From positions 2,464,001 to 2,528,000 of the forward strand of contig CM000207.1 of the NCBI GenBank assembly GCA_000002445.1: a stretch of 64,000 nt of DNA, given 5' to 3'. Shown piece after piece: positions 2,365 to 29,017 of the stretch (positions are counted from its first letter, which is position 1; each line of letters begins with the position of its first letter). Made by a program: the position numbers and the translations under genes. Source of the DNA: Trypanosoma brucei. Its lineage: Eukaryota. Under the pieces are notes generated by a model. It did no database searches. It was not told the DNA's origin and was given only the letters and a program-made list of their open reading frames with translations.

Positions 2365-2378
2365 GGGGGGGGGGGGGG
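2365..2378 (+). repeat. G14 homopolymer tract (preceded by (TG)n) in divergent strand-switch region
   Basis: Direct count in sequence: gtgtgtgtgtg + 14 G. Confidence 0.9.
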
Positions 2379-5300: not shown

Positions 5301-6643
5301 TGGAAATTTGGATCATAGTTGCAGTTCAATTCTTTCTCACATTTTTTTCCATGGCACGACGGCTGCCGTCCGTTGGCGTGATTTATCCTCTTGATGTCCA
5401 AATCCTAATCGTATTTCTAACCTTATAATGGTGGTTGTGGTGCTGTGTGGACATACTGACCGGCAGTGCATAATACCAATTGTGTACGATGTTTTGCATT
5501 GTTTATTTATTTTGAGCGTTAATTGGACCGAATACCTGTACCACCAGACCCATCCAAGGCTCACATGCTGTTCGGTCATGAGAAAAGTTTATGGTGCACT
5601 ACAGCGGAGGTGTTTGTGATATTTTCGGTGCAGATGTTTTACCGGTGACTTTCGGCAATTGTTGCTGTTGTCAAAAGCTTTTTGCACGCTCCGCGAGGGG
5701 ACTGATATGTGATATCTCTCACGTCGGTAGGTGTGCTGCTACCGGTTATGTGCAAAGTGATACCTGTATCAAATTTGACTGCTTGTTTGTAGTCTGTAGT
5801 ATTTGAGTTTGCTCATGGAGAGTTGTTGCTTGTTTGGTTTTAATTCGATCGTGTTTAACTTCTCCCTCAGCTAAGAGTGATGTATGAACTGGAGTATATG
5901 GGATTACCTGCGTGTGTGCGGCTCTCCTTTTTTATCCTTTACCTTTCCATCACGGCTATAACACCACTACTCAAATGCAGTTTTCTCCAGTGCGATGGGG
6001 ATATATGATTGCTCGCGTAGCCATCATTGGCATACTTTTTTTGCTGGGTAAACGCAGCGCGTTCCATTACCATAATCAGATGATGCGTATTTGATCAGCG
6101 CTGTTTATATCTATCCCCCGGTAGCTTCCTCCCTATAAATGAATCATGATGCAGCACAGTTTTTGTTCCTTAGGTTCACCTGCCATATTTGGTAGATTTT
6201 CATCACACATGTTCTAAAAGGGGGATTGTAGTGTTACGCATGCAAGTTCTTGTGTAGACGTTGGCATATGGAATATCAAGTGGCTGTTGCTGCTATTTTC
6301 AGGGGAAAAAAAAAAAAGAAACGTCATCACATGGTAGCGTTAACGTGACAGACGCCAGAGAAGGGAGGAAAAAAAATCAGTCCAAGTAAACAATAAGGAG
6401 CAGCGAGGTGGGAAGTTGTTAAAGGAAAAGGTGAAGCAGTGTTACGCGTGGTCTACTTTTGGTACATATGAGCGGCACTGCCGACGCATTATATACGCGC
6501 ATCAGATGGTATCCCCATGAAGAAACTCTGCGTTTGGGATTCAAAAAAGAACTTTTCACAACACATCTGGTGACAAATTGGTGCGTTGCGAAGAGTTATG
6601 CGCAGTAAAAGGAACATTTTGTGTCTTTAATAGTCCCGCTGTT

Positions 6644-6655
6644 GGGGGGGGGGGG
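6644..6655 (+). repeat. G12 homopolymer tract in divergent strand-switch region
   Basis: Direct count in sequence: gctgttGGGGGGGGGGGGattg. Confidence 0.9.
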
Positions 6656-8101
6656 ATTGTTAAATAAGTGTTTCTGGTGAGGTAAGATACATTACATAAT
6701 TGAACCACAGAAGGGAAATTGAGTAGCGTATTAAAAATTCTTCATGATATGTGTAAGTTCGGCTGGATTATCATCCTACTGAAATCATGTGACATGGATG
6801 ATGTTTGTGATTCGATGTGCTAAGTGTGAGGTGAGGTCATGCCTTGTTGTGTAATACCACATGGACATTCGGTCAATGTTTTTTTTTTTCGAACGGGTTG
6901 AAAAAAGAGCGCTCGCATGCACATCAGGTTTGTAATCACTGCAACGAATGCTTTATTGTGATTGAGAAGCGCGCATTGAGTGGGAGAGTACAACTCTCTA
7001 TCTCTCTCTGTGTGCGTGTGTTATGCGTGCTAAAGTGTATTATGTTCTATAACGGTGTCGATGGTGGCGCTCTGACAGCAGTGTCTATATATCACCGCAG
7101 TGGGTGTTGTGAACACGTGTGTATGTCCTTTGTGTTTTCAACTGAATTGTTGTGTTTGTTAGATAAAACTTTAAGAGTTCGTGTTCCATTAGTTGCACTG
7201 GAGAACTTCTCTAGCAATCGATGAAAGCGGTGATGTTGCTTGATTTCAAATGCTCATGCGACCAATGTGGAGCATTCGGTTGAGAAATGAAATACCCTTT
7301 TGTTTCTCTGTTTCTGGTGTGTAAAAACGCAGTGTGCTTACGGTGTCTCCTCGTGCCTCCTTTGTCTTTGCAAAAAAAAAAAAGACGTTGCACTTGACTT
7401 GTTTCCGGTTTTTGGCACATGTTGGGTTGAGAGTGAAAAGTAATGGGTAACTGGATATATCTTCCTTTTTTATCTAGGGGGGAAAAACAACTGTATGCGA
7501 GGGGGCTTAGTGTTATTATTTCATTGGAAAGTGGTTGACGGGTACTTGCCGGCGTGTGGTGCAAATTGTTTCCTTGCATAGTGCTGGGTGTAATCAGTGG
7601 TGGTATTTTTTTTTCCAAATGACGGGTGTGCACAAGGAACGAGTAGTAAGAGTGAAATACGGAGGCATGAGGTTCAGTGGAGCTAAAACTGTGCAGAAAT
7701 TGCTATTGGTCACTACGCCTATGAATTTTAAATGCTCAACTGGTGGGGGTACGGCGCAGGACTCGTGTATTCACTACCCCAAAAAGGTCCCACGAGGGGC
7801 CAACAACAGTGCTTGGAGGTCCGTTGGCGTCTTGTGGAACTCCGAATACACGGATTATGTGCCAAGTAATTTGTACAGTCGATATCTTTGTTTTTAGCCG
7901 CGAGTGCCGAGGCTTGGTCGTTGCGCATGTGCCAACAATCCGGTGGAGCAGCTATGAGCTGCGATACAGGCGCGTGCTTGCGTGCCACATCACTTCCCCC
8001 TTATTTGCCATTTTTTAATTACATAACTAATAGCGGTTCCTAAGGCGTTTTTAGCACCTATTTATTGGCGGCCGGGGCTTGTCCCCTTCTCACCATCACC
8101 A

Positions 8102-10720: not shown

Positions 10721-13700
10721 CGAGTGGTGGATTTTTACTACACGCAGCGAGTAGTGGTTGGTTGAGGGGCAAATATCCAGCTGCCCAGCTGACACGTCCT
10801 TATTTTAGGTGGTACTATGCGGATCATCATGAATTACGCCCTTTAATGGCGCCTTGGTGTTGTTGTTGTTCCTTATCCTTTAAATAACATGAAGATTAAC
10901 GGGCTCAAGAGGGGAATAGTAGGAAAAAAGCTGCGGTGAAGGGTGAAGGCCCCATCTGCAGTGAATAAAAGCGTATACGGCCCCATGTGGCACCGTACAT
11001 TTTCCAGGTAATGGAAACGTTCTGTATATATTACTCGAGGCGCTAATTGTGCACGGTACGTTTGCCCACGCGTAAAACCTTCATTTTTGCATTTGAAGAG
11101 GGGGGAATCGCATCTTTATCCCTTTCCTCCTATCTTCCTTCCTTCCTTCCTCCTCCGCACCGTAAAACGAAATATAGTTAATCAAACAAGTCACTGTTAA
11201 CCACTTTTAACTAGTGACACGAAAGAGAGCGCCACGAGGTGAGGAATGAAATGATATAAAGGTGGTGTAAGACCTCCTTGTTGGGGCCCACATGTAGGGA
11301 AAAGATAAATGAATGGTGGTGAAAAGCATTAACGGGCGAAGGTTGTTTGCATCATCTTTATTGCTACCAAAAGGAAACCGCTCCATGGGTGCATGCGCCA
11401 ATGGTGTGTATTCCGGTGATCTGCCGCCGCATCTCGCCCCTCACTGGAGCAAACTTCACCTTCCCTTTTGCGTCCCCTTCCCTTTTTTTTATTTTTTCTC
11501 TGTTTTCCTTTATTTTTTTTAATGCCCTGAAGCATCATAACAACTGCGGTGCCTTCAACATTCGTTTGTAGACGGCCAGGTGGACAGCCCACTTCGTGTG
11601 AGAGTGAAAGGGACGGAGAAGAAAGGCTTCACAAGCAACACATCCTAATCGTATATGTTTTCCTTCGATTTTGAGTTAAAAAAGGGCTGTGTTGTTGTAG
11701 CCGCAGTAGCGAATTCGTTAATGTCAGCCACCCGTTAGTGCGCCAAGCAACTCATCACCGGAAAATTGCTGCCCTGAGCGGGATAAACGATGCATAAAAT
11801 CAAGAGGAAGGTTTAGTGCCCAACGCATGGGACATTGTATGGGTATTTGCTACACATAGCTCTTCAAGGTTCGGCCAAGCGCCGTAATTATTTCCATGCA
11901 CTTACAGACTTTTTAAAAGGGTCGCACATGTCCATCATTACATCACACACACTGTGCTCAAACATCTTAGTTGGTGGGTTGTTCGGCTGACGACGATCGC
12001 TGTTATCGTTTGGGATACGTCCACACCGCTAGCGTATTTTGCATGCGCCAGAAGTGACACGTACACGATAATGTAAAAAAACGTGGCTCTTCGGCTTGAG
12101 TTATTCGCCTTCACTTTGAGGGTCACTTTCGCTTGCTTACTGCTGACCCCGTCTTGCTTTGGCGTGCTAAACTCAGCCCCTGGGCCCACCTTATAAGCAA
12201 AACAACTTTATATTTGCGCGGTCGACCCCTTTGTCACCACCACTTCCGCCGCGACGTTTCACCCTTCCGTTTCAATTGAATGTACGCAGTCACTTTGTTT
12301 CGTAACTCCGGAGAGTCATTTCATTTCATAGGCAGCCGCCTTGACGAAGTCGATTATATGTGTGTTGGTGTGTGTGTGTGTGGAAAGGCGATCCGTTGTG
12401 TTGGATACTTACTGGTTTGCGTTCTAGTACGCCGGCGGCAGAGTCTGCGGCTCCATTTAACCGCGACTTTCTCACGTCCTGAACAATGGTCCGTTTTTCC
12501 AGGTTCCGTCCATCAAGGTTTTGGGTGCTAAAAAATTTCGCTTCCTTGAGTGTCATTTTCCTTTGGGTAGTGTGTCCTGTGGTTTGTTTGTTTGCTCGCC
12601 TCCCTTTTCTTTCGCCTCGTGCTCCTCAACGGACATTTAACTCGTTCACACTTCAGTGATATCATTTTGGGGGGCTTTTGCTTGACTCAGTAGGCGCAAC
12701 TCCCTCCCCTCCCGCAAGATCCACCGCCCAATATTCCTCTAGGTTCCTCCTTTTTTTTTTGCTTAACTCCCTGTCATCCACCGCAGTTCCCTCTCTTTGT
12801 GCATTGTATCCACCACTTCATTAAATGTTTACCACTCCTGCGGGAATGGCATCGGTGCCGCCATCCGGTTTTCCTGCCATTTTCAATGACTCAGTTTCAG
12901 ATGCTAGTGGGCATCTTCCGCGTTGATTTAAACACCTTCCATGTTGAAGAACTTGTTCAGAAAGTGTATTCCACGTCCTTTTGAAATGGCGATGTTCCCG
13001 TGACCGCAGTATTACTCACCTTGTATTCTTCATATAACGCGATTCGTTTCAATAGACGAATCGATACATTTGGGGCCAAGGTGACGGCTACCACCGCACT
13101 CTGTGGTGATGTTCGGTAAAGCATCCGATGCGGTAGTTGCGCTGAAAATTGTGGAACGCGGGCTCGCCATGGTTCCGAATACGCTTAAGAGCCTTCACCG
13201 TGGCGGCACTGTGCGAGCTCTAACAAGAAAATTCCAAAAAAAAAGGAATTTTGCTCATTGAAGGAACCGTTGCGTTGCTGATTGATGGTTGACGGAAGCG
13301 GGTTCTGTTGTGAGGGAAAGCAAGGGCATGAATGAGGAAACCGTGAGGCAGACATTTGGAAAGGAATGGGTGTGGGTCGTTGGCGGTGCCACGGAGTAAA
13401 GGGTTTGAGCCTGCGAGGAAATAAGACGAGCGGAAGAAGGAAGGCGTAACGAATGTTGTGGCTGGCGGTTTGAGGGGTGAGCAGACGCCTTCCACACGTA
13501 CATGCATGAACACCGGTGTTGGCAAAAGAGGGAGGTGTTTTCAGCGGTGCAGCTGCACGGCCCGGAACATTGTCGTCAGGGAAAGAAGCAGCCTTCTTTA
13601 TTTCGTCTTCCGTTGACAAGAGCGGCTTAATGTTTAGAAACATGCGGTTCACGACAATGTCAAGTAGTATCGAGGCGGAAGCCTGACTCGACAGGGGCAA

Positions 13701-13945
13701 AAAAAAGCAGTTAGGAAGATGAAGAAGGTGCCGTTGACGACGCGTGAAGCGAAAGATGGAATCGAGTGAAGTTTGATGGTGAACTGAAAAGAACTTGCCC
13801 CACTTTAGTAAAAGGTTGAAGGGGACACCAACCAATAAGGTGCGTGCAGGTTAGAGGCAGAACAGAAGAAGGAACGCCAATAATCGCGCCGCGTGAGGGC
13901 TGGAAAGCAGGATGATTTTACACGGATGAAGCGTGTATGTGGTGT

Positions 13946-13957
13946 GGGGGGGGGGGG
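13946..13957 (+). repeat. G12 homopolymer tract inside an ~800 bp purine-rich (+ strand) block
   Basis: Direct count: ggtgtGGGGGGGGGGGGagagg. It sits within the 13250-14060 block, which is strongly A/G-rich on the + strand. Confidence 0.9.
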
Positions 13958-16583
13958 AGAGGTTATGTTGGAGCATCTCTTCACCGGAATGGAACCACAA
14001 AAGGAGCGGCGGCCGCCAAATAAATAGCCACAACATGAACGCAAGAACAAAAACAGAAGGGAGCATATTAGCGCATTGGTGCCCATTGTCGTGTTATGTC
14101 TTGAGAAACGAGCTATCCCCTGAGGGAAAAAATGGACGGCATCGATGTGGGTGTGAACTTCACTCGCGGACCAATGCAAAACACCATGCGGAAGTTTCCA
14201 CGAGCTGACGATCTTGCTCTCGAGAAATCCCCCCTCGCGCGTAGGGAAGCGGCGCTTATCAAGGGGATGTTAAAGCACAAACATATTTGTGTATATTTTT
14301 ATTTATTTAGACTCACCTATTTATATAATACCTCTACATCGTATGAAATTGCCCCGAAATTGTGGACCGCATATTCGAATAGTTTCTCCACGGCTCAGCT
14401 TCTGTGGCCTCATTGCTTGAAAAAATGCGAGGTTTCAGCGCTTATATTTGAGAGGGTGGTTCCGCGCCCCTTCTAGCAGAAGTATGTTGGCCGGTGCAAA
14501 TGCTGATAAGTTGCCAAATCCGCCTCGTCACAAAAGAAGAATGGAAAAAGCAACGGGCAACACAACAACAGGGTTGAGAAATGCTAGGATATTAAAAAAA
14601 GGGAGTTTATACCGGACGTTTACGTGCCGATTGGAGCGCTGCAGGCGCCAATAAAGGTTAGCTTCCTGGCTGCCAACAGCTTTATTATTATTTTACCCCA
14701 TAGTTGGTTGCCTTCGAGGCTACTAAAGCGGTTCACTTCTACTGGAACAGCGAAGTAACGAAGAAGTGGACTTGAAGTAATTCTTTAACTAGGGGAGATT
14801 CTTCAGGAAATATTTAACAGGAAATTATATGCATGCGCCACACTGACCGAAGAAAACTTTAATGACGCACAAGAGAGCAAGGACTCAGGTGAAGCAAAAA
14901 AAAAAAAAAAGAGATCTTCAGGGGGCGCAGAGGCGAAAGCCGGCAAAAAGAATGGAAGAAGGAAGAACACAATGAAACCGATCGCCTTTGGAAGAAATTT
15001 CAGCAATGATTCATCAAGATCGAGACGAGTAGCGTTTCCCTCCCAGAGAGTCCCTACTCGGAATTATCCCCATGTAACTACCCTTTGGGGGTGTTAAAGA
15101 TAAAATGGGAAGAAGAGGAAGGTTTATTTGTTTGTTTGTTTTTTTCAGGCACCATGGGCTCTTTCCCTATTTCCACCATCGCGAACTTCAACGAGAGCAT
15201 TCAACACGCATGCTCGCCCACTAATCATATATTTATCTGCTTTAAACAACCTGGGGGATGGTATCCTTCCAACAGCCAATCTGAGCGCAAACAAGGACGG
15301 AGGGAGCAGATTCACTAACACTACAGAAGTGATAAGCAAGGCAAAGGAAACGCGCGCTAGAACACTGTAGCCAAAGTTGGGATTCAAACACATTTCATTT
15401 TTCCACACGAGAAAATGTAGCACATAGTGGAGATTGCGCAACACCAAATACACTCCGCAGACGAGGGTCACAAAGCCTCACCCATATCCCAACCCTAAGG
15501 TTCAGCGTGCGGTTTTGGACCTCAGGAACTCTTTGGCTCCCCTTTATGAGAACAAATTATAAAAATTTGAGGGACCTGTGTGCAGTCAGCTGGCAGCATC
15601 CTCTGCAGATGTTGTGCTCCTCTGTTCCGTATTATGTGCACACTTGTTCGATACCAGCAAACTGCAAAAAGTTCTTTCTTTAGAGAGAAAGTGACGCCCC
15701 GTGGTGGAAAAATTCTGTTCAATGGGTTTCCACTGCAGGAAGGGAACTCGCAGTAGGCCGAACTCCAACTACGATACTGTGGTTGAAAGAGGGCGAAAGA
15801 GTGCCGCACACGTTCACATCATTTCAACTGGCACTGGCCGTGCGTGTGGTTACCTCAGCCTTCCTTTGTGCGGATAAACAGGCGGGGAAAAGAGAGAGAC
15901 GCATGCCTACATTTGTCAGACCGCAAGGAAGTTGTCATGCAATTTGTGCAGTTTTGGAACCCGGGTGAAACAGAAGAAGAGAATTCAGCATACAAACATG
16001 TTACCATGATGCTCCTTTTCATACAACTCAAACAAAGCAGGCAACAGAAAATTAATCAGCATGTTTAGGTGATCGCGGTGCCGGACCAATGTCCCTCCGC
16101 GCAATTCATCGCGGCTTGTGAACGATGGGAACCATTGCGCCCTGCTTGTCCGCGTGAATGCAAAAAAAAAAGTTCACATGCCATTACAGAAAGCAGGCAG
16201 TTTTCGGGTTATGTACATATTTTTCTTAGGATAGAATGTTCAAAAATGTAATGAGCAATATTGTCAATGCCCCTTTATTTTTTCACGCGTTCACACGAAA
16301 TTCCCACACCTGTTTAGTAAGGCTATTGATGCGCGTGGATAAAATGAAAGAAGGTGGAAACAGAAAAATATTGAGCATAATGTTCTTACTGCAAAAAAAA
16401 AATGTAGCTTGGCGGGCTGAAATCATCCTTACTGCACTTTACCCTTTCTTAACGTCTCCAATGAAATTATTACCTAATGTCTCTTACCTTCAAGTTTCCT
16501 ATTGCTTAAGCTGATGTTAGTTATATTGTGCCTTTAGAATTTGTCCTAAAGTGTTAGGCGGCGGTGTCAAAATCCAAGTAACA

Positions 16584-18032
16584 TTACTGTGACTCATCTT
16601 TCGGGAGAGCCGAATTGACACCCAGGGCACACATACATCCAGCAAAGATACCAAACAGCAGTGAACTAACGGCCCAGTTGGCTGCTAGAGAACGTTCGCC
16701 AGCGGTCGTCAGCGAACCAGTACGCGGCGCGTAGACTCCCGCTAGACCCCCCACGTAGCCATACGTGAGCGACCAGAGGAAGCAAAGAATATAAGGGAAT
16801 GTCGTGCCCTTAATCACACTGTATGCGCAAAGCACAATTGGAATGACGAGCAACAAACGCGCAAACGTCCCAATCACCACAAAGAGCGGTGATGCGTGCA
16901 GAGTCTTGAACTGAACGAAAAGGCGCGCCACAAAATCTCCCAAGTTAAACATCATCGGAATGATCACCATATACCAGCCGTTGTCATCCGGCCCCAGTTT
17001 GACAGCAAAGAATACACCAGGGTAGATGAGGAAGGCGGTAAAGAACGCAATAAAGCACACGGCTAACATGGGCCAAACACGCCTGAACACAGACAACGCA
17101 CTCGCCTTCAACATCTGTTGCGAGTTCGTGATATTCTCAACCTGGTCCGTGTCCCTCATCGTGTCAGGGTCTACAGTGGAAGTCATCACGTTGCTCTTGC
17201 CCGCGTTGCAATCCGCTTTCAAATCGTCATCCTGGTCGGCCGGACCCTTTCCTAAGCTACTCGGTTCATTATCATCTCCAGCGTCATCACCTTCAACAGC
17301 ATTCCCTTTCCTCGCCGCGTAACGAAAGTCTGCTGTATACTTCATGGCGTAAGGGTTCTTCCTCAGCAGCAGCAGAAGACCACAAGAAATCGACTGCATA
17401 ATCATGACCAACCCAAAGTATATGCGTGACTGAGTGAGCCTACTCGCGACGCGGTCTTCTGTACGCTTGAAGTTACTCTCCGTGGAAGCTTTAATAACAA
17501 TCGCAAACGTCGACGTGATAACACCACACACTGAAACACCCCACACGTACGCACTCAAAAACTTCGTTGGAAAGGGACCGGCAAGTGCAACGGCACCGGA
17601 GCTGCAAAGTGCAGTGGAAGCTCCGTTTATCAAACCAATCAGTATAATGGTTACCCTGGCACCGGTTTCCGTTGTTTTTCCGATGGTAACCATCATCACA
17701 GAAAATACTAAGATAATCGGAAAGACAAGACCAATATAGAGGCGAAGGGTTATGGGAATCCGCTTTCCAAAGTTTGTGAGCATCAGTGACACTACCAAAC
17801 ACTCCACAATAAACGTCGTCGCAAGATAGTACGTGAAGACATTTTTCCAGAAAAATTTCTGCTCTTCCGTCTCCAGCTTGATGTTCTCGCCATCCTTGGC
17901 CGCGAAAAGGTAGAACTGGAGGAAGAACTCCAGGAACGACAAGACCGTGTTCGACACCACCATCACCGACATCCCAAAACACATGAAGGTGATATAGGCA
18001 AGGAGTTCATGCACAGAACCGAAGCCAAGCAT
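16584..18032 (-). CDS. Equilibrative nucleoside transporter (ENT/SLC29 family) of the kinetoplastid nucleoside/nucleobase transporter type
   Basis: The track ORF (16584..18068) starts at TTG; the first in-frame ATG is at 18032 (MLGFGSVHELLAYITFMCFGMSVMVV...). There are about 11 predicted TM helices, with a large hydrophilic acidic loop between the TM6 and TM7 equivalents (EGDDAGDDNEPSSLGKGPADQDDD...). This is the standard ENT topology. The N-terminus resembles the conserved MLGF... start of trypanosomatid NT/AT transporters (from memory, not verified). Confidence 0.85.
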   Translation of the reverse strand: MLGFGSVHELLAYITFMCFGMSVMVVSNTVLSFLEFFLQFYLFAAKDGENIKLETEEQKFFWKNVFTYYLATTFIVECLVVSLMLTNFGKRIPITLRLYIGLVFPIILVFSVMMVTIGKTTETGARVTIILIGLINGASTALCSSGAVALAGPFPTKFLSAYVWGVSVCGVITSTFAIVIKASTESNFKRTEDRVASRLTQSRIYFGLVMIMQSISCGLLLLLRKNPYAMKYTADFRYAARKGNAVEGDDAGDDNEPSSLGKGPADQDDDLKADCNAGKSNVMTSTVDPDTMRDTDQVENITNSQQMLKASALSVFRRVWPMLAVCFIAFFTAFLIYPGVFFAVKLGPDDNGWYMVIIPMMFNLGDFVARLFVQFKTLHASPLFVVIGTFARLLLVIPIVLCAYSVIKGTTFPYILCFLWSLTYGYVGGLAGVYAPRTGSLTTAGERSLAANWAVSSLLFGIFAGCMCALGVNSALPKDESQ

Positions 18033-18740
18033 CCTTCCAATTTCAGCCAGCACACCTTTGAGTAACAACTAACCTTCTACGAAGCAAGGTGAAAGGGCAA
18101 GAAAAATGGTCATACATGTCGATATTACCATTTATCACATTAGCATGCCTCTCCTAAAGAAAAAAAACGTTTCAAGCATTAGACACAAAGCGTTCCCCCC
18201 GTGTATACGCTTAACGACCGTTAACTTTGAAGTTTTACCCACGATCGCACGTGTAATCCTCGGGAATTTTAGTCAACCTTTCTAACAAATATCGGTACTC
18301 ACAATTCATATTGCTTAAGTCCTCTAAACGCTCTCTTCGACTACAACTCATTTTACATTTGGTAAAACTGTAGGGAAAATTACACATGATACTAAAATAT
18401 TTGTTAAATCATCGGTATTAATGAAAAAAAAAATTAAGACAAGTATATTGAAAGACACATATATGTATAGAGTAGGGGTAGGCGTATACTGTGAATATAC
18501 CCTGGACAACAAGTCTTTACTTTCTTAAAGTTTTGTGTCCCTTTCCCCCACCCCAGCACACACCACCCTTGTGCGCAGCCATTTCAGCCATTTGACGTTT
18601 CTCTTGTGTTCTGTCCCTTCAGTAGGTCCCCCTTCCACATCCACATACACCTGCAGTCCCCTCTGCTAATGTTTGCCCACACGCAACCGTTGTAAAAGTG
18701 GGAGGTTTAATTGCACCAACACTCTCGCTTGAAAGATTCA

Positions 18741-19134
18741 CTAGCAGGAAGAAATATCGAGCCCCAGACCGTTACCATTTCCACTCATGTCCTGTAACTC
18801 TTTCTCAGAAATACAAGTGCCTCGAACGTACGTGCCTTCAGTGCTTCTAACTCCACATACCGCCATCACAACCACCACCCCCAACTCCTCTGTAACCTTT
18901 TCGCAGATACTCAGAAATAAATCTTCAGGTGCTGACGCTCTATCCACATGTGTTATCTTCACCAGCTTGGGGCATTCTCTGCGACACAGCACTTCCAGCT
19001 TCTTGTGATTTCCCCCAAAATATTTGATACTCAGCAGTTATTTCCGTTAGGTTCAGCCAGAGTTTCCTTAAATTTGGCAGATTGCACATCATTTTCAACC
19101 CCTTGGTAACCTTGGTGGAGCCCCTCAACGACAA
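18741..19134 (-). pseudogene. Possible degenerate leucine-rich-repeat (ESAG8/LRRP-like) gene fragment
   Basis: Two adjacent minus-strand ORFs contain LRR-like strings (NLPNLRKLWLNLTEITAEY; ECPKLVKITHVDRASAPEDL). They are weak and short. Confidence 0.2.
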
Positions 19135-19574
19135 TTTTTTTGAGGGTGGCCATTTTTTTTTTTTTGAGATAGTTACTTGTGCTTCTTATACGCACTTATA
19201 AAACACACCGGTGTTAGGTCTCGATCTTCTCGCGTTTTCGTTGACTGACCGAGTGACTGTATTCCTTTCCATGCATTGCTCTGTGAGGTGAAGTCCCCTT
19301 GTTGTTGTAGCGCGAGGGTAACGCATGAAGCGGTGAGTTTTTTTTAATCGTTTTTATACCAACGAGGAATGCAACTTTACGTTTGTATTCATCAGCACAT
19401 GGGCGGATTATACCAACTTCATTCGAGTTACCCCATCTTTATATATATATATATATTTCGCTACGTGTGAGCAACCTCCGAAATTTGAGGGTTCTTTGGA
19501 TATGTGATAGCTTCAAATGCGCTATTACTAACGTGGACTAATTTTACCTAGGATCGTAGTTTTTTTTTTGATTT

Positions 19575-19585
19575 CCCCCCCCCCC
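19575..19585 (+). repeat. C11 homopolymer (G11 on minus strand), preceded by T9
   Basis: Direct count: tttttttttgatttCCCCCCCCCCCtgcg. Confidence 0.9.
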
Positions 19586-20734
19586 TGCGTTTCTAGCCCC
19601 ACTTACCCTCACAACTCCTTCAGTCCATCACACTCAAGTAAATGAGCAGATGACTCGTCCCGGCGCCCAGTTGTCAATTTGCTTCAAACGTTCTTCCAAC
19701 CCCGGCAGTGCACCATCCTTATTTTGCATACACAAGTTATCAGGCATTTCCTCACCCACCCCCTTATCAAATGTGCGGTTACACCTGAAACGGCTTCTTT
19801 CTGTCTTGTTATTGTTGTTTTAAGCAAAATGTACGCCTATGTTTTCTGTTGTATTGCTTTCCCAGTGCTTGATGGAATCCAATGCTCCAAAACAACGTAC
19901 GGAAACACCCTACACCGCTTTACAGTGTTTTGGGACGGTGGACAGATTCTTTCTTGCAAAAATATTCGTATAAAGAGTATTATTACTATTTCCCCCCGAG
20001 TGCCCCTGTGGAACTGTGTGTGATTACTGCATGGTAGTCGCCTGCTAATTAATGACAGGATTACCAATTTCCCAGAGGGGGCGCGGAGTCGTAACTACAT
20101 TGTGGAAAAAGTACTAACCCGTAAAAATACGGTAGGAGAGATGATCAGCACCGCAGTGTTTTGTACGGGTATCCAAACTTCCGAAGACCTTTGCATTCCC
20201 TGGGAATTTTGTTAACTACCCAAAACCACAGGTGGGTGAAGGGAAAAAAAAAACAGACTCACATACCCAAGCCGTTTTATACCTTTGTTATATTACTTTG
20301 TGCCACAGGCAAAACGTTAGTTACAAGCCATTGTTACCTTTTCCATCAATTACATCATTGTGGTATCAGCAGTCTGCAATTAATTTTCCTGAAGCGCACT
20401 GTCTGAATTTTCGTTTGCCAGCGCCTATTAAAGCGGTGCTATAACACCGGCACCGCGTACGGCTATACGTAGCGGCATTCGAGAGCCTTGTTTTTTGTTC
20501 ACGGGTTTGACAGGGCTGGACACTCACATAAATTCTTTAATTAAAGCATAAGGTGCTTTGCGTCCTCGTTGATTTCGTTAGACAGTGGACGCGACATATT
20601 CCCCATGTACTTCACAGCAAAAAACATCATTTCGCCAGGCGCCTCCGTGAATATCAGCGATGGCACCACAAACACACACGCACACACAGAGACAGAACAC
20701 TCCACAGTCGCTTGTATAACTTGGGGTCAAGTGG

Positions 20735-21501
20735 TCAAGTGGGTGGAATGCACTCGCTGTCTTCCTCCACATATTGTTCCTTAAATCGCTGACAGAAATT
20801 ATTAAGCGCAATTTTGTCCACCTCGTGATGCAGGAAGTGCTGCTGGAGCTCGCAAGCAATCTGTATGGTGGCAAACTGGCTCTTATCCGTTGTCATGAGC
20901 GAATTCTCAACAGCTTTAACTTCGGTGCATTCGGACTTGACGATCAGTGAGCGGATCACTTCGGTGATGTGTCGCAACGGCATCGGGCATCAGCTCAGGG
21001 TGTCCAGCTCCCAATGTCAGTGAGCATAATTGTCACGGGTTTTATTGGCCCCTTCGACTCACAGTCGTTACCACGACTGTAGCGCAACAACCGAATCTGC
21101 ACCACCAACAGCACTTCCACAAGCATCAGCGTAATGACAGACACAATAATAAAACCTGTGAGCTGCGCAACAGTGAGTTTGTCTCCGTCAGAATCGAAAT
21201 CCTTTATAGTCGGTGTAACTGGGGACGTAAGCGGCGGCAGTGAAGGGTTCAAAACGCGTGCTACGAACCAAAGGGAAATGCGCATCGCGCCACAATTTAA
21301 CAAAAAAAACTCTCTCTTCAGTACCTTCACGACTGCACTTGAACAAGACACAGATGCGTCACGTGCGAAAAACAAGGAGAGATGCCGCATCCTCAAGCGT
21401 ATACCGTACGCTGCAGAGCAGAAGACGTTTATACGTTCCATACTTCTGTTCGCTGTGGGGTGAACACAGTCCATATTGTACATGAAAAACGTCCGTGTCA
21501 A
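20735..21501 (-). pseudogene. Possible frameshifted gene for a small single-pass membrane protein (two adjacent minus-strand ORFs of 168 and 82 aa in different frames)
   Basis: The ORFs 20995..21501 and 20735..20983 abut, separated by a frame change. One hydrophobic span (LTGFIIVSVITLMLVEVLLVV) is present. No recognisable family. Confidence 0.25.
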
Positions 21502-22004
21502 CTGAATCTCTGTGATAATGCGATTATTTAACGCGTAAACCGCGCTGAAACATAGAGAGGATTTTCATAGTGACGACGCCTCTTCCCTGGAAAAGTCTTA
21601 GGTCAGCAACACTCAAAGGGATATCCGACATGACATTCGCCTGCACGCCACTGCTAAATTGAGATAAACCTAAAACCGAAGGGGCCGTGATTTTGAGCGC
21701 ATCCAATGGCACCAGTCTTGTGTTGCTTAGTCATTTCCACAAATGGAAGCGTTACGCATGGCATCACACGACGCTCGAGTTACAAAAGTTGTGCAATGTC
21801 AACCCATTGCTCACAGCGCAATAATTCAATAAAACCACTTCAACTATTAATTATCGCTTTTCCAAGCCATAGCACAAACGAGCAAGTCACATAATTTTTT
21901 TTGAGCACCTCACCCAACACAGCCATCGGTGGACTTCTTGATATCTGTTTGTGCACTGTGCTCACTCTCACACGAGTGGTGTGTCCAGAGCGACTGATGC
22001 ACCT

Positions 22005-22015
22005 CCCCCCCCCCC
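22005..22015 (+). repeat. C11 homopolymer (G11 on minus strand)
   Basis: Direct count: gcacctCCCCCCCCCCCtcctcc. Confidence 0.9.
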
Positions 22016-22519
22016 TCCTCCGTCATGACAGGGGTGGAAAATATCAACCTCTTGGAGCCCCCTCTCTGTATTTCAAATTAACGCTAGATAGCATCCTTGT
22101 CCACCTTCCCAATAACAAAGAAAAACAATAACGACCCGACCAAGCACTCTTGACGCGTGCACCATACCACAATAAAATGGTTTCCTGAGGAAGCCTGTTT
22201 GGTCACACGGTCGTGTGGTTCTTAGGCAAAATATTCACCTCTGAAGAAAGACTGTGGAAGCCTTCTTTCCATTGGACAGGAAACACAAGTGAGTAATAAT
22301 TATTGCACTATTGCTCGCCAGCAGCAGTGCGTACGTTTCGTTATATTTCCGAATGAATCAAAATACTTCTCAAAGTCATTCGTACACAGAGAACAAGCAG
22401 ACCATCGAGCTCATGGCAACAAGTATTTCCATGAGAGCAGAAAAATCCTGACAAAGAACAAGCACCAGTCCCCAACCCAAAACTGAGCGACAAAATAGTG
22501 TACAACAGTCAGCCAGAAA

Positions 22520-22528
22520 GGGGGGGGG
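22520..22528 (+). repeat. G9 homopolymer
   Basis: Direct count: agaaaGGGGGGGGGcagttg. Confidence 0.9.
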
Positions 22529-25500
22529 CAGTTGCAGCCGGATTACCAGCGCGGCGTTGACTATTAGATACTCCTTGTGCAGAGAAAAGGCAAAAAAGCT
22601 GTGATTGGCACTCCGCAGGTGACATTAAGCGAATACCGTATTTGAGTTCCATCACATAAGCTACATCAGACCACGAAAATATGAAATACGCAGCTCCCAG
22701 TTGCATCAAGGAACCGCTAACATCACTCCAATCACGCCCCATCCTCAAATGTGTTTGTGTGAATGGCGTCAAATCGATGGCATCCATGGTATATGTGCAA
22801 TCCCATCCGAAGTAAAAATAATAATTCGGAACATCTACATTTATTTGTTTAAAATTTAGAAGGACATTCCGTTCTACTGCTACGACAGTAGCTATCGATA
22901 CTACACGCTGCGCTAAACTATTAAACAGTGTAACACACGTCAAAGTAATAGAAAGTGTTCTCTCACGCACCTACCTTTCACCAGAGAAATGTGACGTCCC
23001 GCAGCTGCTCGTGTGAAGACAACATATCGCATTCAGCTTCTAAAGCTGAAGGGATGGAGCGAAAACGACCTGACCGCTTGCCTTCTCACCTACTCCACCG
23101 TGATATTTTAGAAAATAAAAATGTTCATAAGTATTGTTAGCGCACACAAAAACTGCGTGCGACAACGAGCATCGGGAGAATAATATTAAAAATACTGCAT
23201 CGAATCCATGAGACTTTGAACAGAAACATCACACTACTTTGTTGTCGTTCAACCGGACTCGAAGTCAGTTTCGTTTCACAACGCATCCATGACCCAATAG
23301 ATGAGTATCATACCTGGCATTCACGATGATGTTTCCACACTCCTAATACTGCCGCAGTATTTTGGTCTTTGTATCCACCTGCGAATCAATTGAAAATAGC
23401 ATACATCCAGAATTATGAAGATGATAAGGTACAGTTGATATACACTATTCCTTCTTAACGTGAGGGTGACTGTGTTCACACTAGGCGTCACATGACTACC
23501 CTGCAACTCTCAGGTGCGAAGTGGCGCTGTTACCAACACGCAAAAAAAAAAACTCTCAACAGACGGTCTCATTCCTTCCTTTCAGAGAGAAGATGTGTCG
23601 GCTGTTGTTGAACTGTTTCAAGTATATGACACCTAAGAGCACATTGAATTGGCACCTAATTTTTTCCTCGTAATATCCGATGGAGGCAGTCACCGTAGAC
23701 ATGATATGAAAAACGCAGACACGTAACACCAAGAATGCCGTTGCACCGGTGAGCGAACTTTTACGATCACCAAACTGCACCTGTGGCTTAGACCATAAAA
23801 TTCAAAGGTGCTACATATTTTTAGAAGCTTTAAATACGATGCAAAGTGGAAGAATCGTTGCTTCCTACCGCTGGTTGGTAAAGCCGCATTACTGAATTTA
23901 TCACGAGTAACGCACAGTAACTGCTACCTCATACACTTAAGGGGAGCAGTACATATGATCCTCCCTCCTGAGTATTCGCTATGAATAACCACAGTAACGC
24001 CTGCTTCATTAGGTGATTGTCTCTGGTACCAACGGCCAGTGCACTATGATAAGCCAAATGATTCGTCAAATGGTTGGTAACATTTCATCTGCGTTCCTTT
24101 ACATCGTCAGCACAATGCATACATGCTGTTGCAAAACACTGTATGCGTAAGAGCAGTCACCGAATACATCACAACTTGAAGGTATAATAATAAGCATATG
24201 CATTTACCGAGGTACTACATCTGTCATCCCTTTGTTTGACATAGCACAGTAAATACTGCTGAACAATCCAGGAGCACAAAGAAAAATTTTTTAAAAATAG
24301 TATTTTTTTTTCCAGGCTCAGCAGACATTAATATCATTTGCATGCCACACACATTTGTAAGAATGTCACACCCACATGTATATGTTTATCAAAAACACAA
24401 AGATGAAAGAGGATAGCAGAGCCACATCCATCAGTCGCTATTCCAGTGGTCATAAAATAACTACATACGATAAGAGTCTATCTCCAATGCATCTTATCGA
24501 AAGTTCAACTGTACCCACTAGGCAACTGCAAGCACAGAAAAGAGGGAAGTGGCACAAAGCCGAAGATGCGCCCGTGCAGCAGCCTCAGACAACCGTTACT
24601 TATGCAATGCAACACAAAAAAGCTTCTCCTAGCTTGATGGAGCAGAGAACACTTTTAGTCCAAACTAATATAGGCAGAAAAAAAAAAAAGCAATGTACGA
24701 ACTCAATAATACACACCAAACAGCGACCCAACACAAAATGCAAGACATACATAAAGCCACCGAAGCTGATGGCAGGTTGAAACGTCATATGCTTCGTTTT
24801 GTTTTTCTTTTATCACCTCTTAGAGGCCCGTAAAATATCCATCCACTTGAATAGAACCACATGATAACATGAACTCACGCAGGAGAAGTTTCAGACACTT
24901 TTGCATATTTGAATATCCACATGAGATTATTCGCACCAACAGGAGTCAACAAGTTTCCCACTAAACGCCATGCCGCAAGTGCGAGCAGACGCTACGAGTG
25001 CCCCGTAGAGAAGTGCCTTTGCACGTTGCAACGTGCAACACTTTGTATTCCTACAAATGGGAATAGAGAAGGTTATAGTATTTAAAAAGTAGGTCTCGGA
25101 TAATGCTACTTCCACCTCGGGTTGTATTCAGTGAATTGCTCCTAAGATATTTGCAACGACATGAACAAACAAGTGGTTCGGACCCTACCCACACCGTTCT
25201 ACAATATGCCTAAATTAGTTTGTCCATCAATTTCCTCTCGCGGACTGCATATTCACCCTCATCTTGCATGTTTCAACACTCGTACCTTCACTTTCAGTAC
25301 GCTACTGTGTCTCTTGTATCTTTTATGCATTTTTTATCATTTATGGGTAGACTTCGTGTGAGTTTAAGGTTTAAAAAATTGCTTCTTTTTCCATTTTTTC
25401 CTTATGCTAAATTCAGCGCATCGCCCATATCATGAAGAACTCGCAGGAATGTCACGCATCTAAAATGTGTACCACACGCAAAACATGGAGCAATACATGC

Positions 25501-27503
25501 CTGCCGAACCACAATCGTAACGTTGTTGTAATCCGTTTGTAAAGGACAATGTTGTTGTGAGTGTAGAGGTGTGGCATGACGTTGATAAGGAGACTTTAGA
25601 ATCTAATGACCCCTTATTTATTTGTCCGTTTTTTAGATGATCCTCCAGTTTCCGCACTATTGATCCAGGTGATTTAGTGGTAACATATTAGCCGCGCTAG
25701 CCTTCACACGCACAGGCTTCCCCTGCATCTGTCAGTCTCTTCTATTGCTACTGTGTATGTGCGTCGTGGGGTCCCTCATTGTGATATTCAAGCCAAAAAA
25801 AAAAAAAAAAGCGCCGAACACCTGAATACTAACTGTCAGCATTAATGCAATCACCATCCATCACTTTGTCTACATTAACAAAGTTGCTCCGATTATGAAC
25901 CAGCACCGAAAGCACGAGCAGTGTCAGCCACTGTCACAACAGTTAGATCACATGAGCATAACCCGTTGAACTCAGCAAAAGCCAAAAAAAAAGGGTCAGA
26001 CCGCCGCCTGGACAAAGGAGACGACGCCAGAAACTGAGAGACGGTGATGGAGCGCCTGCGTTTTTTTTTTTTAAATCCTCGGCAGAGGCGCCCATTAACC
26101 GTGTCTTCATGTTCTTCGAGGCCCTTCTCACAGATCATGAAGCTCAAAATATGGCAAAATCCCTTCACGACCTCCTCCTAAGGAATCCCAACTCGGCGCA
26201 ACAAGCAACCGGCTACTCGCGCGCTCACCATGCAGAGCGAAGGCCCTTTTAGCGCTTCCTGCGAGTCGTGGCAATGGCAATTCCAATTTGTTACAGCGAA
26301 CGTCGTAACCTTTGTGAAAGCAACACTCCATTCGGCCGCTTGAACGTTAAACTACGTGAGTTGCAGCGCTTCGTGATATCGCAGTGACGGGAACTGAAGG
26401 CGGTGTGAGGGAAGCTACCGAAGAAAAAGCTCTCAAATGACGTCACGGGCCGCCGGGAACGGTGGACGTTTGAGACCGAAGTGAGCCTTGTGCCATCGTT
26501 GGTTGACGTGGGGCCGTTTGCGGTTCGTCCTTATGGCAAACCGGTCATGAGCCTTCTGTTCAAATAGTTTTCAACGCAGCCCGGTGGTTGTGGGGTCACG
26601 CTGTGCGGAGGTGTAACTTGTCTTCACCCTCGGCTGGCTGGGGAAAAGCGGGGGCGGAAAGCCGTGTGTTGAGAGTGTTCTCGTCTTTGTGGTTCTTTTG
26701 CCCTCTCCGCGATGGTGCTGCAGTCCGTCGTTTTCCGGAGACTGTTTGCTTGGGGACGTGCGCTTGTCGATGCCTTTTTACTGTTTGTAGGATCCGGAGT
26801 GCTAAAAGTACTGTTTGTGCCTGCGTGTTAGGGGTGGAGAGTCGCCTGAGCTTTGCGCAGTGCGCGGCGCGGCAGCATGCGGAGAGTATGTAGGCAGCGG
26901 GGTAACGAGCAGTGTTGAGTGTGTTGGTGGCAAAATGCCGGCAGGTAAAAAGTGTCAAAAACGTGTGTTGGTGTGCCGGGTGTGTTCAAATATATTTGGT
27001 GTTGACGTTAATCTTTTTCCTTACTAACCACCATTTTCATATTGTTGTTTTTTTACTTGCTCCCCTCAGTCGGCATGGATCCACGTTCGGGAGTGTACGG
27101 CTTAATTTCGAGCGGTTTCGACATCTGCATTTGTAAGCTCATTTGGCGATGGTAAACAGGGCGCGCAGCAGTAGCAAAAGGGCCAAGTGATGAGTAATGA
27201 GTCTGAAGAATAATGAGCGGATGACTGCGCAAAGAAGTGAGGAAGCGAATATCCTCTTTTGCGATGCGGAGGTGAAAGTGGAAGGAAGCGATGATAAGAT
27301 AGTGACGAATAGCATAGAGGTGGCGGGGAACTAGAGAATCAGATCATCAGGCGGTCTTGCGAAAGAAAAAGGACAAAAGTAGGACGCCAGAAGGTCTACA
27401 CAATTATAGTGGTAAACACTCGGGAGGAGGTGCAGGAAAGAAGAGGGGTTTGCGGGAGGGAGCGGAGGTTAGGAACCCGCGTTGCAGCTGCTGATGAGAT
27501 TCG

Positions 27504-29017
27504 TTGCCGGGTGCTACTTCATTTTTGTGCGACTATTACCGACGGTTTTACGCTGCTGTGAACAACACTGAGAAAATTGGTGGCGTGTGGTCCCGTGGAA
27601 AAGAAACTCGTGGAATATATTATTTACCTCCACTCTTCCACCAACCACGGCCTCAGGTACTGAATTTGGAGGGCGGAGATGTCTCTGACTCAGTACTTGA
27701 GAGGATCTCCAAAACAAAGTCGCTGCAGTCACTTAACTTGTCAAAATGTTGTCGTATAACCGACATATCAGCATTATCATCCCTCCCGACACTGGAAGAA
27801 CTGAATATTAGCCGTTCTATAATAATTAAAAGTGGTTGGGAGGCACTCGGCAAGTTGACTCGGCTACGCGTGGCAATTATTTCCTTAAGTGATGTTGCTA
27901 ACGAAGGAATATGTCTCCTCAGCGGGTGCAAATATCTCAGAAATTTGCAACCGATCCGGTGTTACGTTTTGTCCAACATTGAGGCGGTAAACAACATCAA
28001 TTCACTGGAGGAGCTCACCGTTGAGAATTGTGTGGACATTAAGGAAGGTCTGCTCAAGGTTGGAATGCTACCAAGGCTACGGGTACTGGCGTTGAGGCAC
28101 GTAAAACTCAGTTTTTTTCTCTCAGTTAACTAGGAGAGAGAAAATCACTGGTGAAACTCACTATCAAAGGATCTAAGGAACTCTGCGACATCAAACTTAT
28201 TTCCAACATTGCAACACTTAGGGAATTGAAAGTCGCCTATTGTGACAGATTATTAAACGACGTAGGGGATCTTAGGAAACTGCTATGGCTTAATGTACTG
28301 AGACTCCGCTATTTCAAGGTGGGAAATAGCTGTTTTGAGAGTGTCTGCACCATGCGCTCGTTGAAATCACTTGACGTCGCCTACTCAAAGAAATTAACAG
28401 ATATATCTCATATATCAAACCTTACGGCACTGGAGGAATTGAATCTGAGCGGATGTTACCTCATAATTTCAGGCTGGGAAGCACTAAGCGAATCACCACG
28501 ACTTCGTGTGCTCAACTTGGAATCCGCCAGAGTTACGACGCGTTACGATGGACATTATATCAGCAGATGCAAATCCCTCGTCACACTCAACCTTGAATCG
28601 TGTTATATGACCGATGCTTCATGTCTTGCTATTATCAAGACACTGGAGGAGTTGCATATAGGGAAATCCAAAGAGCTAACGCAGGGGTTTAGTGCACTTT
28701 TCACTCTTCTGAGGTTGCGCATTCTTAACCTGATTTGTTCTCTCATTACAGATGAAGATCTCAGGGAAATTCAACCACCCCATACCATTGAGGAACTCAA
28801 TCTTTCTTATTGTGAAGAGCTCAATGATATTACACCACTTGGGAGAATAAAATCAATTAAAAAATTGCATCTCCGTCAGAGACATGATGTCAGAAGGCCC
28901 ACAGAAGGATTCAGAAGTCTTTTGGAATTGCCATGTCTTTCTTGGGTTGACCTAGACAACGTGTGTGGTTGGTCTGATGTTTCTTGTGAACTGAGAAAAA
29001 GGAGGGTACATACCTAA
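27504..29017 (+). pseudogene. ESAG8-like leucine-rich repeat protein (LRRP) pseudogene: lacks ATG and N-terminal RING, one frameshift near 28131-28151
   Basis: Two ORFs in different frames (27504..28133 begins at TTG directly after a TGA; 28151..29017). Both consist of tandem ~24-residue LRRs of the ESAG8 type (LNLSKCCRITDISALSSLPTLEELNISRS; LDVAYSKKLTDISHISNLTALEELNLSGCYLI; LNLSYCEELNDITPLGRIKSIKKLHL). No in-frame ATG near the 5' end. Confidence 0.8.

What the first reader, a model, noticed from the sequence alone, without database searches (positions are those of the whole stretch)
18069..27503. Second divergent strand-switch region with oppositely oriented homopolymer runs (C11, C11, G9)
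The ENT gene (- strand, ends 18068) and the LRRP pseudogene/VSG array (+ strand, from 27504) face away from each other. Inside the interval sit two C11 runs (19575-19585 and 22005-22015, i.e. G11 on the - strand). A G9 run (22520-22528) follows, on the + strand. The G-strand of each run points toward the flanking gene block it would feed. That is the arrangement expected if G-runs mark bidirectional transcription start regions. Together with the G14 and G12 in the first region, five of the six long G/C homopolymers in 64 kb sit in the two divergent regions. The sixth (G12 at 13946) lies in the convergent region.
Basis: partly seen in the sequence, partly recalled or inferred. Interest (0 to 1): 0.5.

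Follow-up and report, generated by a model that had tools for sequence, protein, structure and literature searches.

The report
Known G-runs in trypanosome start region

Summary
The coordinates are exact: C11 at 19575-85, C11 at 22005-15, G9 at 22520-28. These are three of only six G/C runs of 7 or more in 64 kb, where about 0.09 runs of 9 or more are expected by chance. The interval is a true divergent strand-switch region, but three parts of the reading fail.

1. The interval is not gene-free. A frameshifted GRESAG4 adenylate-cyclase relic lies on the - strand at 20660-21381.
2. Base-composition polarity stays '- strand' from the ENT gene up to about 26.0-26.4 kb and flips only there. The innermost opposed homopolymers are T-runs (T16 on -, T12 on +), not G-runs.
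3. The locus is probably Tb927.3.580/.590 on chromosome 3. If so, published RNA-seq shows - strand spliced transcripts starting at about 24.85 kb. That puts C11@22005 and G9 inside a transcript, and C11@19575 at a processing junction.

The two C11 runs are G11 on the transcribed strand. That matches Wedel et al. 2017, where G10 is the top coding-strand 10-mer of start regions. G9 is on the non-coding strand. Run lengths differ in T. b. equiperdum (C11 becomes C6).

The parts
16584..18032 (-). ENT (nucleoside/adenosine transporter) coding sequence. It is the only intact gene of the - strand unit.
   Evidence: Pfam PF01733, E=6.6e-18. ORF listed. The ATG at 18032 was read from the sequence.
18077..18109 (-). 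Polypyrimidine tract plus AG: the likely trans-splice acceptor of ENT.
   Evidence: Sequence. Scored (71% pyrimidine, AG at 18078/18077).
19575..19585 (-). C11 on + (G11 on the transcribed - strand). An AG directly abuts it at 19586/19585. Kept as C11 in T. b. equiperdum.
   Evidence: It maps within 3 nt of the start of Kolev transcript Tb3.NT.6.
20660..21381 (-). Relic of a receptor-type adenylate cyclase (GRESAG4) pseudogene. It holds the end of the periplasmic-binding-like domain, the transmembrane segment and the first half of the catalytic domain, spread over three reading frames.
   Evidence: Pfam PF25493. PDB 1fx2 GRESAG4.1, E=1.2e-32. tblastn with full-length cyclases covers only their residues ~776-1035.
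22005..22015 (-). C11 on + (G11 on the transcribed - strand). It is only C6 in T. b. equiperdum.
   Evidence: It lies inside mapped transcript Tb3.NT.5 (with the mapping).
22520..22528 (+). G9 on +, which is the non-coding strand of the local - strand unit. It is G8 in T. b. equiperdum.
   Evidence: flanking segments have GC skew -0.15 and -0.11.
23501..23552 (-). T11 polypyrimidine tract (23552-23542) followed by a cluster of AGs (23510-23501): the likely splice acceptor of an upstream - strand transcript.
   Evidence: Sequence. It coincides with the Tb3.NT.5 start, mapped to 23504.
24939..26029 (.). Block of 1090 bp with no substitution against T. b. equiperdum. Only 6 substitutions occur up to 26536. 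It lies in the transcript-free core of the strand-switch region.
   Evidence: The mean rate is 323 substitutions per 17.1 kb, and the flanks diverge 3.6% and 5-10%.
25795..26072 (.). Innermost opposed homopolymer pair: A16 at 25795-25810 (T16 on the - strand) and T12 at 26061-26072 (+ strand), 250 bp apart. The strand polarity flips here.
   Evidence: inverted repeat I2/I4. One search puts both cumulative-skew minima at 26355.
27504..29017 (+). LRR protein ORFs, split by a stop codon in this sequence. This is the first + strand gene, followed by the VSG array.
   Evidence: Pfam LRR families. T. b. equiperdum has a 465-aa LRR gene at the same place.

Best explanation
The interval is the divergent strand-switch region at the boundary between chromosome core and VSG subtelomere. 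It launches a one-gene RNA polymerase II unit for the adenosine transporter, probably Tb927.3.590 on T. brucei chromosome 3, which appears here reverse-complemented. The two units part at about 25-26.5 kb, not at 19-23 kb. Leftward transcription starts there and runs through about 7 kb of non-coding sequence that is spliced and polyadenylated. That sequence includes a decayed GRESAG4 relic. Transcription then reaches ENT. The two C11 runs are G11 on this transcribed strand, 4.3 and 6.8 kb downstream of the turn. Coding-strand G-runs are the published hallmark of T. brucei transcription start regions. By inference from Wedel 2017 and Maree 2017, such runs exclude nucleosomes and favour H2A.Z-rich open chromatin in a broad, dispersed start region. 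They do not mark a start point. The G9 lies on the non-coding strand inside the same unit and is most likely incidental. Shown here: coordinates, strand polarity, the pseudogene relic and the length polymorphism. Taken from published data, conditional on the locus identity: the transcript map. Inferred: any effect of the runs on chromatin.
For: Polarity: GC and keto cumulative skews fall steadily from 18 kb and both turn at 26355 (coarse profile). GT-only runs of 10 or more switch strand between 25992 and 26060. An opposed T16/T12 pair sits at 25795/26061. The GRESAG4 relic is on the - strand. Locus identity: an ENT adjacent to an ESAG8-like LRRP matches Tb927.3.590 next to Tb927.3.580. ENT is the only gene between a convergent and a divergent point, which matches Kolev Table S14, 'Tb927.3.590 to Tb927.3.590, Divergent'. 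With window = 165150 - chr3 coordinate, fixed by the ENT splice site, the starts of Tb3.NT.6, NT.5 and NT.4 fall on AGs at 19586/5, 23510-01 (35-45 nt below a T11 tract) and 24767/6. This offset ranks 96th of 17000 tried. Known biology: G10 is the top coding-strand 10-mer of start regions. H2A.Z regions span about 10 kb including the first genes, and GT-rich elements drive directional transcription. Oligo-d(G.C) runs longer than 7 bp are absent from nucleosomes.
Against: No chromatin or nascent-RNA data could be read at these coordinates. The locus identity is probable, not proven: AG coincidence alone is unspecific. Window sequence left of about 8 kb does not fit the v4 gene order Tb927.3.620-.660. 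The transporter here appears about 23 codons longer than the length implied by Kolev's UTR figures. In Wedel's data G10 peaks in the 5'-most fifth of start regions, whereas these runs lie 4-7 kb from the turn. A small cluster of + strand GT 10-mers (G9C at 22520, TGTGTTTGTGTG at 22750) leaves room for some rightward or antisense initiation near 22.5 kb.
Confidence: 0.6

Rival explanations
1. The G11 (- strand) at 22005 and the G9 (+ strand) at 22520 are the two arms of a bidirectional start site. ENT transcription begins there, and at 19575, and LRRP/VSG transcription begins at 22.5 kb.
For: The two runs are 500 bp apart and point away from each other. GGGGGGGGGC and TGTGTTTGTG-type 10-mers on the + strand at 22520-22761 are in Wedel's coding-strand list. 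Kolev 2010 reports that putative Pol II start sites are intrinsically bidirectional.
Against: Segments 22016-22519 and 22529-24850 keep - strand polarity (GC skew -0.15 and -0.11; keto -0.18 and -0.12). The cumulative minimum is at 26355. Mapped - strand transcripts NT.4 and NT.5 start at about 24.85 and 23.5 kb, upstream of both runs. G9 is shorter than the G10 class. The runs are C6 and G8 in T. b. equiperdum. The C,C,G order has about 0.25 chance probability.
Confidence: 0.08
2. The runs are neutral, slippage-prone mononucleotide microsatellites. Their strand simply follows the general G-over-C excess of the transcribed strand. They have no role in initiation at this locus.
For: Nearly every homopolymer of 9 or more in the interval differs in length between the window and T. 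b. equiperdum. C11 becomes C6, G9 becomes G8, A16 loses 7, A12 loses 4, and G12 at 13946 becomes GTG6. Run lengths are bimodal (6, then 9 or more), as expected once slippage sets in. A G12 lies in the convergent region. A/T runs show the same concentration in non-coding core DNA. 13 of 16 G/C runs of 6 or more follow local polarity.
Against: Genome-wide, G10 is 8-fold biased to the coding strand and concentrated at the 5' end of start regions, far beyond the general skew. Synthetic G/T-run elements drive directional transcription and H2A.Z deposition. C11 at 19575 keeps its length. Some length differences may be assembly errors.
Confidence: 0.27
3. The whole 19-24 kb stretch is one decayed GRESAG4 pseudogene, and the runs are decay products inside it.
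For: A clear cyclase relic lies on the - strand. A full-length gene would span about 3.7 kb around it.
Against: 34 full-length cyclases match only 20660-21381, their residues ~776-1035. There are no collinear weak hits upstream or downstream, even at E<=50. Pfam finds nothing else in the three - frames. All three runs lie outside the relic.
Confidence: 0.05

Closest known systems
T. brucei RNA polymerase II transcription start regions at divergent strand-switch regions (Siegel 2009; Kolev 2010; Wedel 2017)
   Same: Genes face away from each other. Strand composition flips inside the interval. G- and T-runs lie on the coding strand. The size (several kb) is in the published 5-10 kb range. The ENT unit is listed as a one-gene 'Divergent' unit.
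   Different: One arm leads into a largely silent LRRP/VSG subtelomeric array rather than a housekeeping unit. The long G-runs lie 4-7 kb from the turn, not in the 5'-most fifth where G10 peaks.
GT-rich promoter elements (Wedel et al. 2017, EMBO J 36:2581)
   Same: G10 or longer on the transcribed strand. The flanking GT-only runs on the same strand include (GT)n at 20664-20679 and T-runs.
   Different: These are single isolated runs, not the 210-416 bp composite elements that were tested. There is no activity test here. Length is not conserved in T. b. equiperdum.
Receptor-type adenylate cyclase GRESAG4 / ESAG4 family
   Same: The relic aligns to GRESAG4.1 (PDB 1fx2) at E=1e-32. It holds the membrane-proximal binding-domain end, the transmembrane segment and the start of the catalytic domain in the right order.
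   Different: Only about 260 of about 1245 residues are detectable. They are split over three frames with stops, so the gene is not functional.

Membership tests
Divergent strand-switch region / Pol II transcription start region of T. brucei | Flanking genes lie on opposite strands and point away from each other. | tested here: met
   ENT is on the - strand. The LRR ORFs and VSG genes are on the + strand.
Divergent strand-switch region / Pol II transcription start region of T. brucei | Strand-composition polarity (G>C and T>A on the coding strand) flips inside the interval. | tested here: met
   Both cumulative skew minima are at 26355. GT-run strand changes at 25992/26060. The flip is at about 26 kb, not at 19-23 kb.
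Divergent strand-switch region / Pol II transcription start region of T. brucei | Enrichment of H2A.Z, H2B.V, H4K10ac and H3K4me3. | not testable with these tools
   No ChIP-seq tracks are available. Only literature statements could be read.
Divergent strand-switch region / Pol II transcription start region of T. brucei | Primary or first spliced transcripts of both units start here. | tested here: inconclusive
   Kolev 2010 Tables S7 and S14 list a divergent start for Tb927.3.590, with upstream transcripts NT.4-6. The transfer to the window rests on a probable, unproven locus identity.
GT-rich promoter element (Wedel 2017) | The G/T-rich 10-mers lie on the coding strand of the unit they serve. 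| tested here: inconclusive
   Met for both C11 runs (G11 on the - strand). Not met for G9, which is on the non-coding strand of the local unit.
GT-rich promoter element (Wedel 2017) | Located at the 5' end (first fifth) of the start region. | tested here: not met
   The runs lie 4.3 and 6.8 kb from the polarity turn, and 2.8 and 5.3 kb downstream of the first mapped - strand transcript boundary. The true H2A.Z limits are unknown.
GT-rich promoter element (Wedel 2017) | Drives directional transcription and H2A.Z deposition. | not testable with these tools
   This needs a reporter or deletion experiment.
GRESAG4 receptor adenylate cyclase | Extracellular binding domains, one transmembrane helix and a class III cyclase catalytic domain in one open frame of about 1240 aa. 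| tested here: not met
   Only residues ~776-1035 are detectable, in three frames. It is a relic, not a gene.

The most novel reading that the evidence does not exclude
The real functional element of this region may be not the G-runs but the 1.1-1.6 kb core at 24939-26536. This core is almost invariant between the window and T. b. equiperdum: 0 substitutions in 1090 bp and 6 in 1.6 kb. The flanks differ by 3.6% on the left and 5-10% on the right. The core holds the opposed T16/T12 pair and the polarity flip. It could be a sequence-specific bidirectional core promoter, or a boundary element at the junction between chromosome core and silent VSG subtelomere.
Probability: 0.2. Interest if true: 0.45.

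Novelty: already known. Interest (0 to 1): 0.15.

Why it matters
Not much is new. Coding-strand G-runs in trypanosome start regions have been published and tested functionally. This locus adds one ordinary example and a caution: G-run position is a poor pointer to where two units actually part. It also shows that an apparently empty interval held a pseudogene relic and, probably, spliced non-coding transcripts. The unusually conserved core at 24.9-26.5 kb is the only item that might repay follow-up. Sequence-specific Pol II promoters in trypanosomes were defined only recently, and core-subtelomere boundaries are poorly understood.

Tried and rejected
- tRNA scan and Rfam scans at gathering and E-value thresholds found nothing credible in the interval.
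- Self-BLAST and tandem-repeat searches found no repeats or mobile-element copies.
- Word-indexed protein searches were nearly blind to trypanosome cyclases. Searches returned one and zero hits; one search returned only short fragments. Full-length cyclases came from the exhaustive search.
- Exact-protein look-ups for ENT and the two + strand genes found no record, so the source genome could not be named directly.
- The idea that the G/C runs lie inside a full-length decayed GRESAG4 gene was rejected.
- An AG-only coincidence test for the chromosome 3 mapping proved unspecific. A test weighted by polypyrimidine content gave rank 96 of 17000.
- Predicted start codons of Tb927.3.600 and .620-.660 do not match ORFs in the window left of about 8 kb. 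That part of the identification failed and is left open.
- Siegel 2009 and Cordon-Obras 2022 are not held in the library. What I say about G-runs in Siegel 2009 rests on my own recollection and on Wedel's citation of it.
- Pure polypyrimidine tracts of 15 or more nt were too few to define polarity.
- Pfam found nothing in ORFs 22509-22970, 25220-25435, 25893-26168 or 26596-26958.
Full report
**Observation.** The other three (G14 at 2365, G12 at 6644, G12 at 13946) are also confirmed. No other G or C run of 7 or more exists in the 64 kb. The next class is length 6, so the long runs form a separate population. About 0.09 (iid) or 0.08 (Markov-1) G/C runs of 9 or more are expected, against 6 seen. 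The flanking genes are as described. ORF 16584-18068(-) is a nucleoside transporter. ORFs 27504-28133 and 28151-29017(+) are LRR proteins. A VSG domain follows at 41424(+). All homopolymers of 9 or more, A/T included, crowd into the first 28 kb (29 against 8). Part of the 'five of six' statement therefore only separates core-type non-coding DNA from the VSG array.

**What lies in the interval.** It is not empty.
- ORF 20995-21501(-) matches the end of the trypanosome adenylate-cyclase binding domain (PF25493).
- Reassembling three - strand frames gives a match to the GRESAG4.1 catalytic domain (PDB 1fx2, E=1.2e-32).
- With 34 full-length cyclases recovered by an exhaustive search, tblastn covers only window 20660-21381, which is cyclase residues ~776-1035.
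- No collinear remnants appear on either side, even at E<=50. This is a short relic, not a full decayed gene, and none of the three runs lies inside it.
- No tRNA, Rfam family, tandem repeat or dispersed repeat was found.

**Where the strands actually part.** Three measures agree.
- Cumulative GC skew and cumulative keto skew both fall steadily from 18 kb and both reach their minimum at 26355 (coarse profile).
- Runs of 10 or more made only of G/T lie on the - strand from about 16 kb to 25992 and on the + strand from 26060 to 27054.
- The innermost opposed pair is A16 at 25795-25810 (T16 on the - strand) and T12 at 26061-26072, 250 bp apart.

The segment between C11@22005 and G9 has GC skew -0.15. 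The segment from G9 to 24850 has -0.11. The G9 is therefore embedded in - strand-polarity DNA, 3.8 kb left of the turn. The same analysis puts the first divergent turn at about 2.9 kb and the convergent point at 14-15 kb.

**Locus identity and published transcripts.** In the window, ENT is the only intact gene between the convergent point and the divergent point, and it lies next to an LRR protein gene.
- In T. brucei TREU927 the adenosine transporter Tb927.3.590 lies next to the ESAG8-like LRRP Tb927.3.580.
- Kolev et al. 2010 list Tb927.3.590 as a one-gene unit of type 'Divergent' (Table S14).
- Their Table S7 gives three novel same-strand transcripts upstream of it: NT.4 140298-141600, NT.5 141646-145448 and NT.6 145569-146964. 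The first opposite-strand transcript, NT.3, starts at 136660.
- I fixed the offset with the ENT acceptor (AG at 18078/7; window = 165150 - chromosome coordinate). The NT.6 start then falls at 19581, where an AG at 19586/5 abuts the G11.
- The NT.5 start falls at 23504, at an AG cluster (23510-23501) 35-45 nt below a T11 tract.
- The NT.4 acceptor falls at 24763, at an AG at 24767/6.
- AG coincidence alone is unspecific. Scoring AG plus upstream pyrimidine content ranks this offset 96th of 17000.

I take the identity as probable, about 0.8. One part does not fit: predicted starts for Tb927.3.600 and .620-.660 do not match ORFs left of about 8 kb. If the identity holds, - strand RNA is already present from window ~24.85 kb. 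C11@22005 and G9 then lie inside NT.5. C11@19575 lies in the 120-nt gap between the NT.5 end and the NT.6 start. The transcript-free core is about 24.85-28.5 kb.

**What is already known about such runs.**
- Wedel et al. 2017 divided 199 start regions into fifths and listed 10-mers that are at least 6-fold enriched on the coding strand. GGGGGGGGGG is first: 132 coding against 17 non-coding in the 5' fifth, and 7, 27, 19, 18 against 12, 3, 8, 1 in the other fifths.
- They also showed that synthetic G/T-run elements drive directional transcription and H2A.Z deposition, and that H2A.Z regions span about 10 kb including the first genes.
- Maree et al. 2017 found oligo-d(G.C) runs longer than 7 bp absent from nucleosomes.
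- Divergent regions of 5-10 kb are described as holding two oppositely oriented core promoters.

The two C11 runs fit it in strand, though not in position, because they are 4-7 kb from the turn. Scanning the window with Wedel's 157 10-mers gives about 18 hits on the - strand and about 10 on the + strand in 18-26 kb. A small + strand cluster sits at 22520-22761. That cluster is the only point in favour of a local bidirectional site.

**Conservation.** A syntenic T. b. equiperdum contig is 97-98% identical across 10.9-28 kb. There, C11@19575 stays C11, C11@22005 is C6, G9 is G8 and G12@13946 is GTG6. Almost every homopolymer of 9 or more in the interval differs in length between the two genomes. 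This fits slippage-prone tracts. Some differences could be assembly error.

**Interpretation.** This is a genuine divergent start region whose turn is at about 26 kb. The G11 runs are ordinary coding-strand G-runs within the broad start region of the ENT unit. By inference they may help keep chromatin open, but they do not mark where transcription of the two units begins. The G9 is incidental. A purely neutral microsatellite reading cannot be excluded for this locus (0.27).

**Seen in passing.** The window and T. b. equiperdum show no substitution in 24939-26029, and only 6 up to 26536. The left flank shows 3.6% divergence, and the sequence from about 26.5 kb rightward shows 5-10%. The conserved block coincides with the transcript-free core and the polarity flip. 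It may be a functional core element, or just a shared haplotype segment.

**Limits.** No chromatin or nascent-RNA tracks could be consulted. Only one related genome was available. The key papers Siegel 2009 and Cordon-Obras 2022 were not readable.

Noticed in passing
window 24939-26536: There are no substitutions against T. b. equiperdum over 1090 bp (24939-26029) and only 6 up to 26536. Five of those 6 cluster at 26029-26044. The mean rate predicts about 20-30 substitutions, and both flanks are more diverged than average. The block coincides with the strand-polarity flip and the T16/T12 pair.
   Followed up: partly
window ~26500 onward, compared with 10900-26500: Divergence from T. b. equiperdum jumps from about 1-3% to 5-10% at about 26.5 kb. 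This looks like the boundary between conserved chromosome core and fast-evolving subtelomere.
   Followed up: partly
window 20660-21381 (-): A GRESAG4 adenylate-cyclase pseudogene relic spread over three reading frames. Part of it is called as a 98-aa 'hypothetical protein' (DPX39_000063300) in the T. b. equiperdum annotation.
   Followed up: yes
window 19571-19587 (- strand): On the transcribed strand the G11 is directly preceded by AG and followed by AAATC plus A10. The mapped start of Kolev transcript Tb3.NT.6 falls within 3 nt of this AG. A trans-splice acceptor abutting a G-run with only a weak upstream pyrimidine tract would be unusual.
   Followed up: partly
window 13946-13957: G12 lies exactly at the maximum of the cumulative keto skew (13971), which is at the convergent (termination) point. 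In T. b. equiperdum it is interrupted (GTG6). Long G-runs are therefore not restricted to start regions.
   Followed up: partly
window 1-8100: A - strand ORF with a signal peptide and weak LBP/BPI/CETP similarity (E=0.0025, below the Pfam cut-off) runs off the left end; its ATG is near 737. The gene order here does not fit the published order Tb927.3.620-.660 on TREU927 v4. Possible causes are a strain difference, an assembly difference or a wrong assumption on my part.
   Followed up: partly
window 16584-18032 (-): The transporter ORF is 482 aa from the first ATG. The length implied by Kolev's UTR figures for Tb927.3.590 is about 459 aa. The difference could be an indel in the acidic loop or a different annotated start.
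   Followed up: no
L001 1-182 (T. b. equiperdum; beyond window ~31.1 kb): The T. b. equiperdum contig carries an ingi-type retrotransposon gene (endonuclease, reverse transcriptase and RNase H domains; 1481 aa) just where its alignment to the window ends. This is a structural difference between the two genomes in the subtelomeric part.
   Followed up: no
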